Shown here: positions 444 through 10,113 of the stretch, piece after piece
Numbering within the stretch: position 1 is the first letter of the stretch
How the letters are laid out: every line of letters begins with the position of its first letter
The notes under the pieces: generated by a model
The model's database searches: none
Told to the model about the DNA's origin: nothing
What the model saw: the letters and a program-made list of their open reading frames with translations, nothing else
Program-made: the position numbers and the translations under genes
IMG/VR virus record: IMGVR_UViG_2974695582_000001
Location: 110,918-129,015 of that record
Origin: a virus
Lineage: Duplodnaviria > Heunggongvirae > Uroviricota > Caudoviricetes
Length of the DNA: 18,098 nucleotides
Direction: 5' to 3' (one strand)

Positions 444-472
444 GGGTGGGTTGACAAAGCCCACCCAAGCTT
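444..472 (+). repeat. Hairpin-AAGCTT element 1, with TTGACA in the loop
   Basis: GGGTGGG-ttgacaaag-CCCACCC-AAGCTT. TTGACA (451-456)-N18-TAGTCT (475-480). Confidence 0.9.
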
Positions 473-525
473 GTTAGTCTTCTCTTATAGACCCTAAAGA
501 AGGGAGAACTCTAAGGAGAAGACTA

Positions 526-912
526 ATGGAAAAGAAGTGGATTTACACCATCTTTGGTGGTGTTCTGGTAGCTGTTGTACTACTAGTTGTAACGGTCCTA
601 AATGTGGACACGACAAAGACAAAGTTTGAAGCATATCAAAACTATGCAAAGCAAGTAAACATCGTTGATTGGTCAATCAGTGAAGATACTGCTGAGAGTT
701 TTGCTAAGGCCAATTGCGATAAGCTCGCAACAGGAGATATGCCCGCAATTAGATTTCAGAATTCAGACCATGTAAAGTCGAGTGCGGCAGTGCTAGCAGC
801 ATATTGCCCTAATTCATTCGACAACTTTCTGGCGGGTGTTATCATGAACAACCCAGAATACAAGAGTACAGCCATGTATGTAAACGAAAGGATTGAAGTT
901 GATTCTCGTTAA
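526..912 (+). CDS. Membrane-anchored protein, DUF732-like
   Basis: N-terminal TM helix. C-x2-L-x2-G ... AAVLAAYCP pattern resembles actinobacterial DUF732. SD AAGGAG. Confidence 0.6.
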   Translation: MEKKWIYTIFGGVLVAVVLLVVTVLNVDTTKTKFEAYQNYAKQVNIVDWSISEDTAESFAKANCDKLATGDMPAIRFQNSDHVKSSAAVLAAYCPNSFDNFLAGVIMNNPEYKSTAMYVNERIEVDSR

Positions 913-1003
913 GGTTCTTATCCTTAGTATTGTCGGGGGACTGGGAGCCATGCTAGGTTTGTATCTCGGTTTTCTAATGGCAATCAATGGATGGTTGGGA
1001 TAA
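899..1003 (+). CDS. Small membrane peptide (34 aa, TTG start)
   Basis: SD GAAAGGA, then MILVKVLILSIVGGLGAMLGLYLGFLMAINGWLG. The stop overlaps the next ATG (TAATG). Not in the ORF track. Confidence 0.55.
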   Translation: MILVKVLILSIVGGLGAMLGLYLGFLMAINGWLG

Positions 1004-1140
1004 TGGCTAAGAGATATAAGGACCCGGTTGAGGATACGTTCAATGAAATTTTTGGCGGATGCGCCATTTTCTTTGCACTAATCTTCTTCCTTCCTTTTGT
1101 AGGGATTGGAATCGGAATTGGCTACTGGATTTGGGGATAA
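1003..1140 (+). CDS. Small membrane protein (45 aa)
   Basis: MAKRYKDPVEDTFNEIFGGCAIFFALIFFLPFVGIGIGIGYWIWG; coupled to the upstream stop. Confidence 0.65.
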   Translation: MAKRYKDPVEDTFNEIFGGCAIFFALIFFLPFVGIGIGIGYWIWG

Positions 1141-1141
1141 G

Positions 1142-1360
1142 ATGAGTTCTGATTATAGAATCAATGAGAATAGGCACATCACCATTCGTGTTGTTGTCGG
1201 CTCCATCTGTGCTATGCTCGTTCTTGTTGCGCTGATTAGCGGTATCACGTACACTGCTCACCAGAACAATGAGAAGACCACCAAGTATGGTGTAGAGTGT
1301 ATGAAGAACGGCGGAGAGTGGCGAGAGCGCAATAATGGTGAGGCGTACTGCGATAACTGA
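1142..1360 (+). CDS. Single-pass membrane protein with C-terminal C-x3-GG-x-W...C motif
   Basis: Start moved to ATG 1142, after the upstream TAA. TM segment, then ECMKNGGEWRERNNGEAYC. Confidence 0.75.
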   Translation: MSSDYRINENRHITIRVVVGSICAMLVLVALISGITYTAHQNNEKTTKYGVECMKNGGEWRERNNGEAYCDN

Positions 1361-1369
1361 GCAGTACGA

Positions 1370-1404
1370 GAGGGGTTGACAGCCCCTCAAGCTTCCAGTA
1401 AGGT
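1370..1404 (+). repeat. Hairpin-AAGCTT element 2 overlapping a promoter
   Basis: GAGGGG-ttgacag-CCCCTC-AAGCTT. TTGACA (1376-1381)-N17-TAAGGT (1399-1404). Confidence 0.9.
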
Positions 1405-1427
1405 TGTACCAACGAAGGGAGATGGAC

Positions 1428-1823
1428 ATGGAGTCCACCGAAGGTCTTAGGTTGAAGCTGACTGCTCACGCGAATGAGCAGATGGAGAAGAAGAACGTTG
1501 ACCTTGAGAGGGTTCAGGCAGCGTTTGTGAGTCCGGAAAAGCTGTACCCCAACAAGAAGTATGCAGGACAGTTCCGAGTCGTAGGAAATGGTCTCTGTCT
1601 TGTTGGAAAGCCCCAGGGCAAGGAGTTCGTTGTATTTACAATTTACGAGGATGGTGTTATGACTCCGCCTCGTCCGGACCAGCTTGACACGCCCGAAGGA
1701 AGGGCGTACGCTGAGCTGTACAATCGGGCACAGCGCACAGGAAAGGTCAGGCGACAGAACGAATACTGGCCGCGTGCCCATAAGCGAGCCGCTAGTGACA
1801 TTCGTCACACTCGCATCAAGTAA
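1428..1823 (+). CDS. DUF4258-like (RelE/BrnT-type fold) protein with C-terminal extension
   Basis: LKLTAHANEQMEKKNVDLERVQAAFVSP...VVFTIY matches the T/S-x-HA-x-E-x-M ... V-x-T-x-Y pattern. SD GAAGGGAG; start could be 1422 or 1428. Confidence 0.55.
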   Translation: MESTEGLRLKLTAHANEQMEKKNVDLERVQAAFVSPEKLYPNKKYAGQFRVVGNGLCLVGKPQGKEFVVFTIYEDGVMTPPRPDQLDTPEGRAYAELYNRAQRTGKVRRQNEYWPRAHKRAASDIRHTRIK

Positions 1824-1850
1824 TTGTATCCGTGGTACTCTAGTGAAATC

Positions 1851-1874
1851 CGCTACCCCAGAATTGGGGTAGCG
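1851..1874 (+). promoter_or_regulatory. Perfect 10-bp hairpin without AAGCTT
   Basis: CGCTACCCCA-gaat-TGGGGTAGCG, directly upstream of the NlpC/P60 RBS. Confidence 0.6.
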
Positions 1875-1899
1875 CGTAATAAACTGAGGAGTTATTTTT

Positions 1900-8460: not shown

Positions 8461-8964
8461 ATGGTTGGATTTGAAGAAGAAGCCAAGGTAATTGCTCTTT
8501 GGGAAATGGAGTATGACGAAGAGGATTGTGAATACAATGCTCCCGAAGGCTTTGAGTATCTTGGAGAGGGAGCAAGTAGGGTTGCTTACCGGAGCTTGGC
8601 TAGTGGATTCGTCTATAAGAGGCATTACTATCCTGACGATGACACAAATGAATTCGAGTACATGAACATCCTTCGAATCAAGGATATTCCGCTGAAGGGT
8701 TGGCGGGTTCCTGATGCTACTCTTTACCACATTGAGGGTGAGCAAATCATCGCAATGGAGTTTATTGAGGGTGGTATGGACATTCACTGTCAGCGTTCCT
8801 ATAAGTTCTGGAATAAGGATTGTGATTGTGGTAAGCCTTTCGGTGTCTGTACTGCTGAGGCATGGGAGCAGCCGGAAGGTAAGTGGCATGTAGAAGATTT
8901 GCACATCGGGAATATCATTCTTCAAGAGGACGGTTGCCGAGTCCTTATCGATTTGGGAGCTTGA
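8461..8964 (+). CDS. Minimal protein-kinase-like protein A
   Basis: LGEGASRVAY (Gly loop), FVYK (beta3 Lys), NEFE, AMEFIEG (hinge), DLHIGN (catalytic loop) and IDLG. Start moved to 8461, after the element and SD. Confidence 0.85.
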   Translation: MVGFEEEAKVIALWEMEYDEEDCEYNAPEGFEYLGEGASRVAYRSLASGFVYKRHYYPDDDTNEFEYMNILRIKDIPLKGWRVPDATLYHIEGEQIIAMEFIEGGMDIHCQRSYKFWNKDCDCGKPFGVCTAEAWEQPEGKWHVEDLHIGNIILQEDGCRVLIDLGA

Positions 8965-8999
8965 CTCGATTGTCCAGTCATGGTAGGCTGGACAAGCTT
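8961..8999 (+). repeat. Promoter plus hairpin-AAGCTT element 14
   Basis: TTGACT-N17-TAGGCT (8984-8989). GTCCAGTC-atggta-GGCTGGAC-AAGCTT. Confidence 0.88.
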
Positions 9000-9022
9000 C
9001 AGCACAAACAAAGGAGAACAAA

Positions 9023-9163
9023 TTGTCTAAGCGTCAGATGCCTAAGGTTCGGAATCCTCGTATGAATAAGACGATGGAATATCGGCGGGGTTCTGGTGAC
9101 TTCCCGACAATGAGTAAGCCCAAGTATAGCCGTAAGGTAAAGTACATTCGAAAGGAATCGTAA
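9023..9163 (+). CDS. Basic 46-aa peptide, weakly ArfA-like
   Basis: SD AAAGGAG and TTG start; MSKRQMPKVRNPRMNKTMEYRRGSGDFPTMSKPKYSRKVKYIRKES. Confidence 0.6.
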   Translation: MSKRQMPKVRNPRMNKTMEYRRGSGDFPTMSKPKYSRKVKYIRKES

Positions 9164-9234
9164 TGGGTCAACCATATCCTACACCAACTAGGTGCCCTAA
9201 GTGTGGCGGACCGGTTCCCTGCCTCAAGCACTGA
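9163..9234 (+). CDS. 23-aa CxxC-x5-CxxH micro zinc finger
   Basis: TAATG coupling, SD GAAAGGA; MGQPYPTPTRCPKCGGPVPCLKH. Confidence 0.55.
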   Translation: MGQPYPTPTRCPKCGGPVPCLKH

Positions 9235-9237
9235 AGG

Positions 9238-9303
9238 TTGACAGCCTGAAGGCTGGTAGGGTAAGGTAGTACCACAAGGCGGGGACAAGTTCCCCGCAAG
9301 CTG
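9238..9303 (+). repeat. Promoter plus variant hairpin-AAGCTG element 15
   Basis: TTGACA-N18-TAAGGT (9262-9267). GCGGGGA-caagt-TCCCCGC-AAGCTG. Confidence 0.82.
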
Positions 9304-9336
9304 CAAGGTCCATCGTAAATGAACCTAAGGAATGAA

Positions 9337-9600
9337 ATGAACAAGCGTGTCAAGCTCACCTTTGCCTCACTTGCTCTCGCTGGGTCTCTTGCTTTGACTG
9401 GCTGTACAGGCTATGATGAGGGTCCGGCCGGTAAGGTTGTGGACAACGACCGAACCTATCGGGGCAAGAGCCTCGGATGGAAGTACGAGCTTGTTACCGA
9501 GAAGAATGGTAAGCGTAGCAGTGAATTCCGAGTGACTTCAAACGACTACTACGATTGCCCGAAGGGTGCCAAGTACCCGAAGTGCACTAAGAAGAGTTGA
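9337..9600 (+). CDS. Lipoprotein (paralog of 10151..10555)
   Basis: Signal peptide with lipobox LTGC; C-terminal YYDCPKGAKYPKC. Confidence 0.8.
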   Translation: MNKRVKLTFASLALAGSLALTGCTGYDEGPAGKVVDNDRTYRGKSLGWKYELVTEKNGKRSSEFRVTSNDYYDCPKGAKYPKCTKKS

Positions 9601-9608
9601 TAAAACCG

Positions 9609-9639
9609 GGCGGTAGGAAATGCTCTTACCGCCAAGCTT
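9609..9639 (+). repeat. Hairpin-AAGCTT element 16
   Basis: GGCGGTAGG-aaatgct-CTTACCGCC-AAGCTT. Confidence 0.88.
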
Positions 9640-9685
9640 GGAAGGCCAACGGGTCCTCCGAAACATATTCTAGGGAGAATAAGTA

Positions 9686-10075
9686 ATGCGTAAGCTTCAC
9701 TTCACTGACCCTGAGCTTAAGAACTTTGCCCTTCGTGGCACCAACGCAATTCGTGGTGGTATGGAGCTGCTTCACGTGCACATTCGTACCGCTCCGCGCA
9801 CTTTCGGTTCTTTCGCTACTCGAATGGATAGCCTGACTCAGGCTTACGAGCTTCCGGCCCACGTGATTCACAAGATGATTACTGGTGGGGATTCTGAGCG
9901 AACTGAAATGCAGTGGGTTTACTTCACCAACAAGCACGGAAGTGTTCGGCCCACGTACCTTACTGACTCTGGTGTGATTCCGTACACTGGTTCGGGTGGG
10001 TCTGCTCTCAATGACTCCAATTTCCTGCTTGACCTGGTTGCCCTTCGTAAGTTCGGCATTGAGGTTGACTACTGA
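9686..10075 (+). CDS. Hypothetical protein
   Basis: SD GGGAG; 129 aa with typical codon bias. Confidence 0.75.
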   Translation: MRKLHFTDPELKNFALRGTNAIRGGMELLHVHIRTAPRTFGSFATRMDSLTQAYELPAHVIHKMITGGDSERTEMQWVYFTNKHGSVRPTYLTDSGVIPYTGSGGSALNDSNFLLDLVALRKFGIEVDY

Positions 10076-10113
10076 GGTAGTCATGGGCTACAGTAGAGAC
10101 GTAGCCCAAGCTT
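10065..10113 (+). repeat. Promoter plus hairpin-AAGCTT element 17
   Basis: TTGACT-N18-TACAGT (10089-10094). GGGCTAC-agtagagac-GTAGCCC-AAGCTT. Confidence 0.88.

What the first reader, a model, noticed from the sequence alone, without database searches (positions are those of the whole stretch)
444..10113. 17 dispersed 'any-sequence hairpin + AAGCTT' elements punctuate the gene cassettes of block 1
Seen: elements start at 444, 1370, 2393, 2816, 3055, 3641, 4440, 5133, 6082, 6346, 7030, 7581, 8410, 8972, 9279 (AAGCTG), 9609 and 10085. Each is a 6-11 bp GC-rich stem of unrelated sequence, closed by G-C, with AAGCTT directly 3' of the last paired C. Stem sequence and loop vary (GAAA, UUCG, TTGACA-containing), so structure plus the hexamer is what is conserved. 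All are intergenic, most just after a stop and upstream of an RBS, and I found no AAGCTT after 10113. There is no U-tract, unlike the terminator at 10613. Inference, four options: (a) an RNA processing or stabilisation signal read by a phage or host nuclease; (b) a factor-dependent terminator or antiterminator site; (c) a cruciform or ssDNA recombination site that shuffles cassettes, comparable to the promoter-stem-loop (PeSL) cassettes of T4-like phages or integron attC sites; (d) CAAGCT acting as a -10-like element. I know of no description of this element in actinophages.
Basis: partly seen in the sequence, partly recalled or inferred. Interest (0 to 1): 0.88.

Follow-up and report, generated by a model that had tools for sequence, protein, structure and literature searches.

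The report
Hairpin-plus-AAGCTT gene punctuation signal
In this Streptomyces phage and its whole subfamily, about 45 early and middle genes each end with a stable RNA hairpin followed at once by the fixed letters AAGCTT; this undescribed signal probably marks where long messages are cut into stable pieces, and it is also the exact seam at which single genes are gained and lost.

Summary
All 17 listed elements exist at the stated coordinates (16 AAGCTT, 1 AAGCTG). Each is a G...C-closed GC hairpin that abuts the hexamer, and each lies between genes on the coding strand.

They are a subset of about 41-49 copies spread over 48.6-121 kb of a 129-kb cluster BE2 Streptomyces phage (Gilsonvirus, 98% identical to SparkleGoddess). 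All five BE2 genomes tested carry 31-52 copies on one strand only. The BE1 phage Jay2Jay has none; its hairpins carry T tails instead.

- **RNA-level signal:** loops are dominated by GAAA and UUCG.
- **Selection:** at 34 orthologous sites C-AAGCT is kept 34/34 while stems are replaced or compensated.
- **Transcribed, not a promoter:** ribosome-binding sites sometimes touch the hexamer.
- **Cassette seam:** five clean one-gene indels between close relatives have both junctions inside (C)AAGCTT(CC).

Best reading (about 0.5): a read-through intercistronic processing and 3'-stabilising signal. AAG|CUU fits the actinobacterial RNase E preference RR|CNU. Cassette exchange is a by-product.

I found no published description. 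The scan had already noted this element on the same genome (e1-1676592), with a similar reading. No RNA ends were mapped directly, so the mechanism remains inferred.

The parts
444..472 (+). Element 1: 9-bp stem, TTGACA in the loop, then AAGCTT (467-472). A -10-like TAGTCT lies 18 nt after the -35.
   Evidence: Orthologues in Gilson, Blueeyedbeauty and Faust keep TTGACA and AAGCTT but have different stems.
1370..1394 (+). Element 2: hairpin with TTGACA in the loop, then AAGCTT. The -10 TAAGGT lies 17 nt after the -35.
2393..2424 (+). Element 3: 10-bp stem plus AAGCTT. It is followed at 2425-2459 by a second hairpin that carries a TTGACA-17-TAGATT promoter and has no hexamer.
2816..2837 (+). 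Element 4: GCCCCG-GAAA-CGGGGC plus AAGCTT. It is the left seam of a one-gene cassette (2832-3072) that is absent from phage Stigma.
3055..3078 (+). Element 5: UUCG-loop hairpin plus AAGCTT. It is the right seam of the same cassette.
3641..3663 (+). Element 6: 7-bp stem plus AAGCTT.
4440..4471 (+). Element 7: 11-bp stem, GAAA loop, AAGCTT. SparkleGoddess, Stigma and Karp carry one extra gene plus hairpin inserted exactly here. Soil metatranscriptome contigs diverge 2 nt after this hexamer.
5133..5163 (+). Element 8: 10-bp stem containing a G-U pair, then AAGCTT.
6082..6111 (+). Element 9: hairpin with TTGACA in the loop, then AAGCTT. The -10 TAAGGT lies 17 nt after the -35.
6346..6369 (+). Element 10: GAGA-loop hairpin plus AAGCTT.
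7030..7072 (+). Element 11: 8-bp stem with a 21-nt loop, then AAGCTT. It lies between a perfect promoter (TTGACA 6985-6990, TAAGGT 7008-7013) and a structured non-coding RNA that starts at 7074.
   Evidence: arrangement conserved in Gilson
7581..7608 (+). Element 12: 9-bp stem, GAAA loop, AAGCTT. Two circular RNA-library contigs have their 3' side at 7601/7602 and 7606.
8410..8437 (+). Element 13: 8-bp stem plus AAGCTT. One circular RNA-library contig has its 3' side at 8436.
8972..8999 (+). Element 14: hairpin plus AAGCTT, overlapped by a TTGACT-17-TAGGCT promoter-like site.
9279..9303 (+). Element 15: hairpin plus the variant AAGCTG.
9609..9639 (+). Element 16: 10-bp stem plus AAGCTT.
10085..10113 (+). 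Element 17, the last copy in the genome: hairpin plus AAGCTT, overlapped by a TTGACT-18-TACAGT promoter-like site.

Best explanation
The element is an RNA-level intercistronic punctuation signal of the early and middle transcripts of BE2 (Loccivirinae) Streptomyces phages. RNA polymerase reads through it. In the polycistronic RNA the GC hairpin, often with a GNRA or UUCG tetraloop, forms at the 3' end of each cistron. The single-stranded CAAGCU(U) that follows is the recognition or cleavage site of an endoribonuclease. The most economical candidate is host RNase E, because A-A-G|C-U-U fits the actinobacterial preference RR|CNU. Cleavage would leave the upstream message capped by a hairpin that blocks 3' exonucleases, and would give the downstream message or non-coding RNA a defined 5' end. 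Every cassette in the gene pool carries the same 7-9 nt, (C)AAGCTT(CC), at both ends. This seam therefore also serves, as a by-product, as the crossover point for gain, loss and swapping of single genes.

Shown: the anatomy, strand bias, lineage distribution, purifying selection, covariation, transcription through the element, and the exact indel junctions.

Inferred: cleavage itself, its position, and the enzyme.
For: 1. RNA signature. In 189 elements from five genomes the loops are GAAA (49) and UUCG (35), and 136 of the 189 loops have 4 nt. The closing pair is G-C in 98%. Of 131 coding-strand GNRA/UUCG hairpins, 90 are followed by AAGCTT, 7 by AAGCTN and about 10 by T runs.

2. In-situ selection. 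At 34 orthologous sites C-AAGCT is identical 34/34 and the last T 30/34. Neighbouring positions are 38-82% identical. 32 of 34 keep a hairpin although the stems are changed or replaced.

3. The element is transcribed and read through. The Shine-Dalgarno sequence starts 0-1 nt after the hexamer at genome positions 84312, 85807 and 105449. Most copies have no room for a promoter of their own. Element 11 lies between a perfect promoter and the non-coding RNA that the promoter drives, and this is conserved in Gilson. The phage uses true hairpin plus T-tract terminators elsewhere, for example after the capsid and tail genes and at window 10612.

4. AAG|CUU matches the RR|CNU / RN|CNU cleavage preference of mycobacterial RNase E in single-stranded RNA (PMC10641625).

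5. The same logic appears at tRNAs. 8-13 of 33-44 tRNA and tmRNA genes per genome have a GC hairpin ending 0-6 nt before the RNase P site.

6. Weak RNA evidence. In soil metatranscriptome contigs from one study, three of five circular-contig junctions have their 3' side at the stem end or inside the hexamer of elements 12 and 13.

7. Cassette seams. Five of 13 clean indels between close relatives have both junctions inside (C)AAGCTT(CC). Gene junctions with an element lose synteny more often than those without (41/61 against 98/219, p = 0.002).
Against: No direct mapping of RNA ends was possible. The metatranscriptome evidence consists of contigs from one study, and the 3' sides found (stem end, AAGC, AAGCU) are not the AAG end that RNase E cleavage would predict.

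RR|CNU is a loose 5-mer and does not explain why seven positions are fixed. The position it requires most after C (U at +3) is the only one that varies here, while its free position (+2) is invariant.

The RR|CNU preference is shown for mycobacteria, not for Streptomyces.

BE1 phages on the same hosts do without the hexamer, so the host does not demand it.

AAGCTT without a hairpin is not avoided in ORFs: about 42 copies against about 35 that I estimate from base composition (copy counts).

A search for a BE2-specific ribonuclease found none.
Confidence: 0.5

Rival explanations
1. Factor-dependent or attenuating terminator. The hairpin plus AAGCUU stops or pauses host RNA polymerase only together with a phage or host factor that reads the hexamer, or it is overridden by a phage antiterminator. 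This would give temporal control of the roughly 100 small early and middle genes.
For: The elements sit at gene ends. At two orthologous gene ends BE1 has a hairpin plus T-tail terminator (after the Ro-like gene, and at own 101847). In Streptomyces most structured RNA 3' ends lack a U tract: 353 of 535 in S. clavuligerus (PMC8269248). Terminators without poly-U tails were reported for the early region of phiC31 (Ingham et al. 1995, seen only as reference 24 of PMC3993855; the paper itself was not held). The elements are restricted to one temporal or functional block and are absent from the late operon. RNA 3' sides near the hexamer fit termination followed by trimming equally well.
Against: The title of PMC3993855 states that mycobacterial RNA polymerase requires a U tract at intrinsic terminators and is aided by NusG at suboptimal ones. 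The phage has real T-tract terminators where it needs them. Most downstream genes have no promoter of their own. Element 11 sits 10 nt after a transcription start and before the RNA that this promoter makes. About 45 sites is an odd number for a processive antiterminator. No candidate factor was found.
Confidence: 0.2
2. The primary role is at the DNA level. The hairpin plus AAGCTT is a dedicated recombination site, a cassette-exchange system in the manner of integron attC sites or REP/RAYT, or a structure-specific nick site. Gene-expression effects are secondary.
For: Five independent one-gene indels have junctions exactly inside the 7-9 nt seam, which is too short for ordinary homologous recombination. 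The cassette unit is regular: hexamer, leader, ORF, hairpin. 'Variable hairpin plus fixed adjacent short motif' is the grammar of HUH enzymes and attC sites. Synteny breaks are enriched at elements.
Against: The genome has no tyrosine recombinase, serine recombinase or Y1 HUH transposase. The hairpins are short, perfect and rich in UUCG and GNRA loops, a terminator-type, RNA-level signature. All copies follow the direction of transcription. Each copy is under purifying selection in place (34/34), which loss of a single recombination site would not enforce. Positions 1 and 6 of the palindrome are unequally constrained and the flanks are asymmetric, which argues against a symmetric reader of double-stranded DNA.
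Confidence: 0.1
3. The hexamer is a promoter element, either a -10-like AAGCTT or part of a composite promoter, so that each cassette is transcribed on its own.
For: AAGCTT has A at position 2 and T at position 6, like a -10 hexamer. Six of the 17 window elements overlap TTGACA/TTGACT-N17-18-TAnnnT sites, and TTGACA in the loop is conserved in orthologues.
Against: Where a -35 lies in the loop, the -10 is a separate hexamer after AAGCTT, and the hexamer sits 7-10 nt after the -35, so there is no fixed phase. In several copies the Shine-Dalgarno sequence starts 0-1 nt after the hexamer, so a start 6-8 nt downstream would lose it. Most copies have no -35. The generic promoter scan is not above shuffles (19 against 16.5).
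Confidence: 0.04

Closest known systems
PeSL (promoter-early stem-loop) cassettes of T4-type phages (Arbiol et al. 2010, PMC2839356; Comeau et al. 2014, PMC4122927)
   Same: Short conserved intergenic motifs with a stem-loop that lie between small, variable early genes. Insertions, deletions and replacements between close relatives have their junctions in the motif. Some copies here also combine the hairpin with a sigma-70-type promoter.
   Different: PeSLs are composite terminator/promoter sequences that recombine by homology over the whole motif. Here the stems are unrelated in sequence, and only 7-9 nt, (C)AAGCTT(CC), are shared. Most copies have no promoter. The host is an actinobacterium and the phage a siphovirus unrelated to T4.
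Intercistronic RNase III processing sites of phage T7 early mRNA (general knowledge)
   Same: A long early transcript is cut between cistrons, and each piece keeps a 3' hairpin that stabilises it.
   Different: RNase III needs about two helical turns, often with internal loops, and cuts within the stem. These stems have 5-12 bp, and the conserved part is single-stranded and lies 3' of the stem.
Actinobacterial RNase E cleavage sites, RR|CNU (Zhou et al. 2023, PMC10641625)
   Same: AAG|CUU satisfies the motif. It is predicted to be single-stranded and lies next to a stem-loop.
   Different: The known motif is loose and widespread. Here seven positions are fixed, the pattern of constraint differs (+2 invariant, +3 variable), and no cleavage has been shown in Streptomyces or on this phage.
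Intrinsic terminators, including U-tract-less ('I-shaped') 3' ends of Streptomyces (PMC8269248)
   Same: GC-rich hairpin just after the stop codon, with UUCG or GNRA loops. The BE1 relative has T-tailed hairpins at two of the same gene ends.
   Different: There is no U tract. A fixed hexamer takes its place, the geometry requires read-through, and true T-tract terminators coexist in the same genome.
Integron attC sites and REP/RAYT elements
   Same: Structure rather than stem sequence is conserved, next to a short fixed motif at which cassettes join. The cassette is an ORF plus a 3' hairpin.
   Different: No integrase or HUH transposase is present. attC sites are long imperfect palindromes with extrahelical bases that act as single-stranded DNA. 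The loops here are of the RNA-optimised kind.

Membership tests
Canonical intrinsic (Rho-independent) terminator | GC-rich hairpin shortly after the stop codon | tested here: met
   Stems of 5-12 pairs at -7 to -20 kcal/mol, placed between ORFs.
Canonical intrinsic (Rho-independent) terminator | U-rich tract of 7-9 nt immediately 3' of the stem | tested here: not met
   The 3' flank is AAGCUU followed by C/G-biased positions. Only about 10 of 131 tetraloop hairpins have T runs, and these are separate sites.
Canonical intrinsic (Rho-independent) terminator | Releases RNA polymerase | not testable with these tools
   The geometry argues for read-through: the Shine-Dalgarno sequence abuts the hexamer, and there is a promoter just upstream of element 11.
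PeSL of T4-type phages | Every copy combines an early promoter with a stem-loop | tested here: not met
   Only 6 of 17 window copies overlap a TTGAC(A/T)-N17-18-TAnnnT site.
PeSL of T4-type phages | Indel and replacement junctions between close relatives fall in the motif | tested here: met
   Five of 13 clean indels have both junctions in (C)AAGCTT(CC).
Integron attC | Integron integrase (tyrosine recombinase) encoded alongside | tested here: not met
   PF00589 has no match in the 129-kb genome, while the control genomes all match.
Integron attC | Long imperfect palindrome (R/L boxes, extrahelical bases) acting as single-stranded DNA | tested here: not met
   The hairpins are 14-37 nt, mostly perfect, with tetraloops.
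REP/RAYT or IS200/IS605-type HUH target | Y1 HUH transposase (RAYT/TnpA) present | tested here: not met
   PF01797 has no match.
RNase III processing site (T7 type) | Double-stranded stem of about 20 bp or more | tested here: not met
   Stems have 5-12 pairs.
Actinobacterial RNase E site | RR|CNU in single-stranded RNA | tested here: met
   A-A-G|C-U-U fits the motif. It lies 3' of the closed stem and has no complementary partner in the 5' flank.
Actinobacterial RNase E site | Cleavage by RNase E giving a 5'-monophosphate C | not testable with these tools
   Only contig-level RNA data were available. The 3' sides seen lie at the stem end, AAGC and AAGCU.

The most novel reading that the evidence does not exclude
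The hairpin plus CAAGCTT is read by a dedicated, still unidentified factor specific to the BE2 lineage, and it defines a true gene-cassette system in a lytic phage. One signal would both process the RNA and direct precise, recombinase-independent (or new-recombinase) insertion and excision of single genes at a 7-nt seam. That would be an integron-like cassette economy without an integron integrase.
Probability: 0.1. Interest if true: 0.9.

Novelty: new variant of a known kind. Interest (0 to 1): 0.68.

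Why it matters
**A rule for how a whole phage subfamily is read and evolves.**
- It explains how about a hundred small early and middle genes are organised in an actinophage subfamily.
- It gives a simple, searchable rule (GC hairpin plus CAAGCTT) for gene ends and cassette boundaries. This can correct annotation and define exchangeable gene units.
- It shows base-precise single-gene gain and loss at a 7-9-nt seam, which is a concrete handle on phage mosaicism.

**If the RNase E reading holds.** It would be the first natural, highly optimised RNase E processing signal described for Streptomyces or its phages. It could also serve as a compact part for insulating cistrons in Streptomyces synthetic operons.

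**Lineage contrast.** BE1 relatives on the same hosts use T-tailed hairpins instead. Two solutions to the same problem therefore coexist, which makes the system well suited to swap experiments.

Tried and rejected
- **Promoter (-10) reading.** Rejected for most copies; the reasons are given under the rival explanations.
- **tRNA-like minihelix read by RNase Z or RNase P.** The G1-C72-like closing pair and the A after it suggested this, but the phage's own 35 tRNA and tmRNA genes show no AAGCTT in their trailers. It stays speculation.
- **Symmetric reader of double-stranded DNA, or a HindIII-like restriction site.** Positions 1 and 6 are unequally constrained, the flanks are asymmetric (C before, variable after), and hairpin-less AAGCTT is at about the expected frequency.
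- **Self-pairing of the palindromic hexamers of two elements into an RNase III substrate.** Considered only; no evidence.
- **Search for a BE2-specific reader protein.** 50 crude ORFs are conserved in four BE2 genomes and have no tblastn match in Jay2Jay. 17 of these plus three other window ORFs were scanned against Pfam. This gave a second RNA ligase (PF09414), a DnaQ-like exonuclease, a KTSC domain, a weak Macro hit, a metallophosphoesterase and SprT, but no endoribonuclease.
- **Rfam.** No family covers the elements.
- **Literature.** Full-text searches for AAGCTT with stem-loop and phage, and for cluster BE papers, found no description. Ingham et al. 1995 could not be read.
- **Metatranscriptome contigs.** They cannot show transcript starts, ends or levels. 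Uncovered stretches mean nothing, and the data did not separate termination from processing.
- **IMG/VR scan.** The more specific pattern found only BE2-like contigs, so occurrence in other lineages with other stems is not excluded.
- **Generic promoter and terminator scan.** Not above shuffles.

Full report
**Identity of the window.**
The window is the last 18.1 kb of a 129,015-bp phage genome with 47% G+C. It is 98% identical to Streptomyces phage SparkleGoddess and is related at 74-83% to Gilson, Annadreamy, Blueeyedbeauty and Faust. These belong to Stanwilliamsviridae, Loccivirinae, actinophage cluster BE2.

In the annotated sister genome all genes from about 6 kb onward lie on the + strand. 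They comprise a late structural operon (about 6-45 kb), then replication, nucleotide and RNA-repair genes, about 35 tRNAs, and roughly 100 small genes of unknown function. No phage RNA polymerase is annotated.

**Check of the observation.**
AAGCTT occurs 20 times in the window against 4.5 expected, and never after 10113. Each is a single hairpin of -11 to -20 kcal/mol, closed by G-C, with its last C touching the hexamer. One copy carries AAGCTG. The four remaining AAGCTT copies lie inside ORFs without a hairpin, so the whole excess is due to the hairpin-linked copies. All 17 lie between ORFs.

**Extent of the family.**
- The window copies are the right-hand end of a family of about 41-49 copies between genome positions 48,654 and 121,025, all on the coding strand.
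- None lies in the late operon, in the left-arm genes on the minus strand, or in the last 8 kb.
- Of 157 perfect GC hairpins in the genome, 33 abut AAGCTT on the + strand and 1 on the - strand.
- The same holds in four other BE2 genomes: 31-43 against 0-1.
- Metagenomic BE2-like contigs also carry them, up to 17 copies in 13 kb.
- The BE1 phage Jay2Jay (Boydwoodruffvirinae) was isolated on S. lividans, as was the BE2 phage Faust. It has none. Its hairpins are followed by short T runs and often by a TTGACA promoter.
- At two orthologous gene ends (after the Ro-like gene, and at own 101847) BE1 has a T-tailed hairpin where BE2 has a hairpin plus AAGCTT.

**Anatomy.**
Across 189 elements from five genomes the signature is G-S-S...S-S-C-AAGCTT. 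The closing pair is G-C in 98%. There is a weak C/G preference at the two positions after the hexamer, and nothing is conserved on the 5' side. Loops are GAAA (49) and UUCG (35), with other GNRA loops also recurring; 136 of the 189 loops are tetraloops.

Seen the other way round, of 131 coding-strand hairpins with GNRA or UUCG loops:
- 90 are followed by AAGCTT;
- 7 are followed by AAGCTN;
- about 10 are followed by T runs (true terminators);
- a few are followed directly by a tRNA.

Enrichment of these loops is characteristic of terminator-type RNA hairpins (general knowledge). Together with the strict co-orientation with transcription, it places the function at the RNA or transcription level.

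**Selection.**
At 34 orthologous sites in Gilson, Annadreamy, Blueeyedbeauty and Faust, the C and the first five letters of the hexamer are identical in 34 of 34 and the last T in 30 of 34. Adjacent positions are only 38-82% identical. 32 of 34 orthologues still have an abutting hairpin, although many stems carry compensatory changes or are entirely different sequences. Both the structure and the heptamer CAAGCT(T) are therefore under purifying selection in place. Positions 1 and 6 are unequally constrained and the flanks are asymmetric. This argues against a symmetric reader of the palindrome on double-stranded DNA.

**Terminator, promoter or processing site?**
- *Promoter.* In several copies the Shine-Dalgarno sequence starts 0-1 nt after the hexamer (genome positions 84312, 85807, 105449). 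The hexamer must therefore be transcribed from upstream and cannot be the -10 element for those genes. Where TTGACA sits in the loop (window 444, 1370, 6082, conserved in orthologues), the -10 (TAAGGT or TAGTCT) is a separate hexamer after AAGCTT, and the hexamer has no fixed phase in the spacer. Promoters are thus facultative passengers, present at 6 of 17 window copies.
- *Terminator.* The phage has ordinary hairpin plus T-tract terminators after the capsid and tail genes and at window 10612. The systematic lack of a T tract at about 45 hairpins therefore looks selected. Element 11 (7030-7072) lies 10 nt downstream of the predicted start of a perfect TTGACA-N17-TAAGGT promoter and 1 nt upstream of a structured non-coding RNA, and this arrangement is conserved in Gilson. 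An efficient terminator there would defeat the promoter; a processing site that trims the leader makes sense.
- *Analogy at tRNAs.* 8-13 of 33-44 tRNA and tmRNA genes per genome have a GC hairpin ending 0-6 nt before the tRNA 5' end, that is, a hairpin followed at once by a known endonuclease (RNase P) site.

**A candidate enzyme.**
Mycobacterial RNase E cuts single-stranded RNA immediately 5' of a cytidine, with the preference RR|CNU in vivo and RN|CNU in vitro (PMC10641625). A-A-G|C-U-U fits this exactly and is presented unpaired next to a stem-loop. This is the first concrete mechanistic lead, but it is an inference from another actinobacterial genus. The loose motif does not explain seven fixed positions, and the pattern of constraint differs, since +2 is invariant and +3 varies.

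**RNA data.**
Only contigs from public runs were available. Three soil metatranscriptome runs from one study hold relatives of the phage. Five contigs are circular in the de Bruijn sense (their length equals the unit plus 30). One of them, 7169-7320, is seen in all three runs. Three of the five have their 3' side at the stem end or inside the hexamer of elements 12 and 13 (7601/7602, 7606, 8436), with 5' sides inside ORFs. This is what hairpin-protected decay or processing intermediates would give if their ends had been ligated. It fits termination followed by trimming equally well, and it is weak evidence.

**Cassette seams.**
I compared the genome with SparkleGoddess, Stigma, Karp and Belfort (96-98% identical), Gilson with MeganTheeKilla, and Annadreamy with Blueeyedbeauty. 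This gave 13 distinct clean indels. Five have both junctions inside (C)AAGCTT(CC):
- own 92242;
- own 104223;
- own 113749-113990 (window 2832-3073);
- own 115383 (window 4466);
- Gilson about 100,472.

In each case the inserted or deleted unit is exactly hexamer, leader with Shine-Dalgarno sequence, one ORF, and a new hairpin. Each hairpin thus travels with the gene upstream of it, and each leader with the gene downstream. Two further indels start 18-31 nt after a hexamer. Metatranscriptome contigs also diverge 2 nt after the hexamer at 4466.

Under my rough estimate that hexamer windows make up about 7% of intergenic sequence, 5 of 13 has a probability of about 0.002. Junctions with an element lose synteny in distant relatives more often than junctions without (41/61 against 98/219, p = 0.002). 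That comparison rests on crude gene calls, and the four genomes are not independent.

The genome has no tyrosine recombinase, serine recombinase or HUH transposase. I therefore read the exchange as microhomology or template-switch recombination at the only sequence shared by all cassettes, with selection keeping intact units. This is the logic described for PeSLs of T4-type phages (PMC2839356, PMC4122927).

**Comparison with known systems.**
The element works like an intercistronic processing and stabiliser site, as in T7 early mRNA but with short stems and a single-stranded motif. It evolves like a PeSL. It is not a canonical terminator (no U tract), not an attC or REP element (no recombinase, wrong hairpin type), and not an RNase III site (stems too short). 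No Rfam family matches it. Full-text searches found no description.

The same element was noted earlier by this scan on an adjacent window of the same genome, with a similar reading (e1-1676592). I reached the processing reading independently. New here are the lineage contrast with BE1, the quantified orthologue conservation, the exact cassette junctions, the argument from element 11, and the RNase E motif.

**Verdict.**
This is a real, strongly selected, lineage-specific cis-element that appears to be undescribed in the literature.
- RNA-level function is likely (about 0.8).
- Read-through processing and 3' stabilisation is the best mechanism (about 0.5).
- The role as a cassette seam is shown as a fact of genome evolution; whether it is a function or a by-product is open.

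Noticed in passing
window 7169-7320: A 152-nt unit appears as a circular contig (unit + 30 nt) in three soil metatranscriptome runs of one study. It comprises a Y-RNA-like stem (CGCCUGAUGACCCCC...) plus a tRNA-like module that ends in an acceptor-like 3' strand. It has the highest depth of all laid pieces, and 1-3 extra letters (C or CAC) sit at the joint. Possible explanations are a ligated or circularised YrlA-like RNA, or a library artefact. The phage encodes Ro-like, PNK and two RNA ligase genes.
   Followed up: partly
window 7074-7320 against Gilson 117,100-117,440 (L005): The modules of the non-coding RNA downstream of element 11 are permuted between the two phages. Here the order is domain 1, domain 2, tRNA-like module. 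In Gilson it is a small hairpin, domain 2, the tRNA-like module and then domain 1. The promoter, hairpin and AAGCTT upstream are 97% identical.
   Followed up: partly
window 450-455, 1376-1381, 2431-2459, 6090-6095, 6985-7013: The early promoter consensus is TTGACA-N17/18-TA(A/G)NNT, often TAAGGT. The -35 is repeatedly placed in the loop of a GC hairpin. Two such promoter hairpins (2425-2447 and about 6980-7002) have no AAGCTT.
   Followed up: partly
genome-wide, e.g. G000:C1 75250, 95179, 98522: 8-13 of 33-44 tRNA and tmRNA genes per genome, in both BE2 and BE1 phages, have a GC hairpin ending 0-6 nt before the tRNA 5' end. The hairpin probably acts as a 3' cap for the upstream RNA after the RNase P cut.
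   Followed up: partly
window 10114-18098: The last 8 kb has no hairpin-AAGCTT element, a higher G+C content (53-55% against 44-51%) and longer intergenic gaps. It begins after a strong bidirectional-looking terminator at 10612-10649. The first 60 nt of the genome recur 734 bp before its end, which suggests a direct terminal repeat of about 734 bp, against about 11 kb in BE1 phages.
   Followed up: no
G000:C1:104169-104900: A second RNA ligase (PF09414, E = 2e-17) is conserved in all BE2 genomes tested and has no tblastn match in the BE1 phage Jay2Jay.
   Followed up: no
Jay2Jay (L034, L040), e.g. 3334-3370, 7542-7570, 8034-8062, 9507-9535: The 11-kb terminal repeat of the BE1 phage holds a different recurrent element: overlapping double hairpins of the form GTCC-GGGCCCG-ACA-CGGGCCC-CGAA-GGGCCCG, in several copies.
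   Followed up: no
window 7526 (loose end): In the soil relative the sequence upstream of 7526 ends in a tRNA T-arm and acceptor-like string. A tRNA or tRNA-like gene therefore replaces the local sequence there.
   Followed up: no
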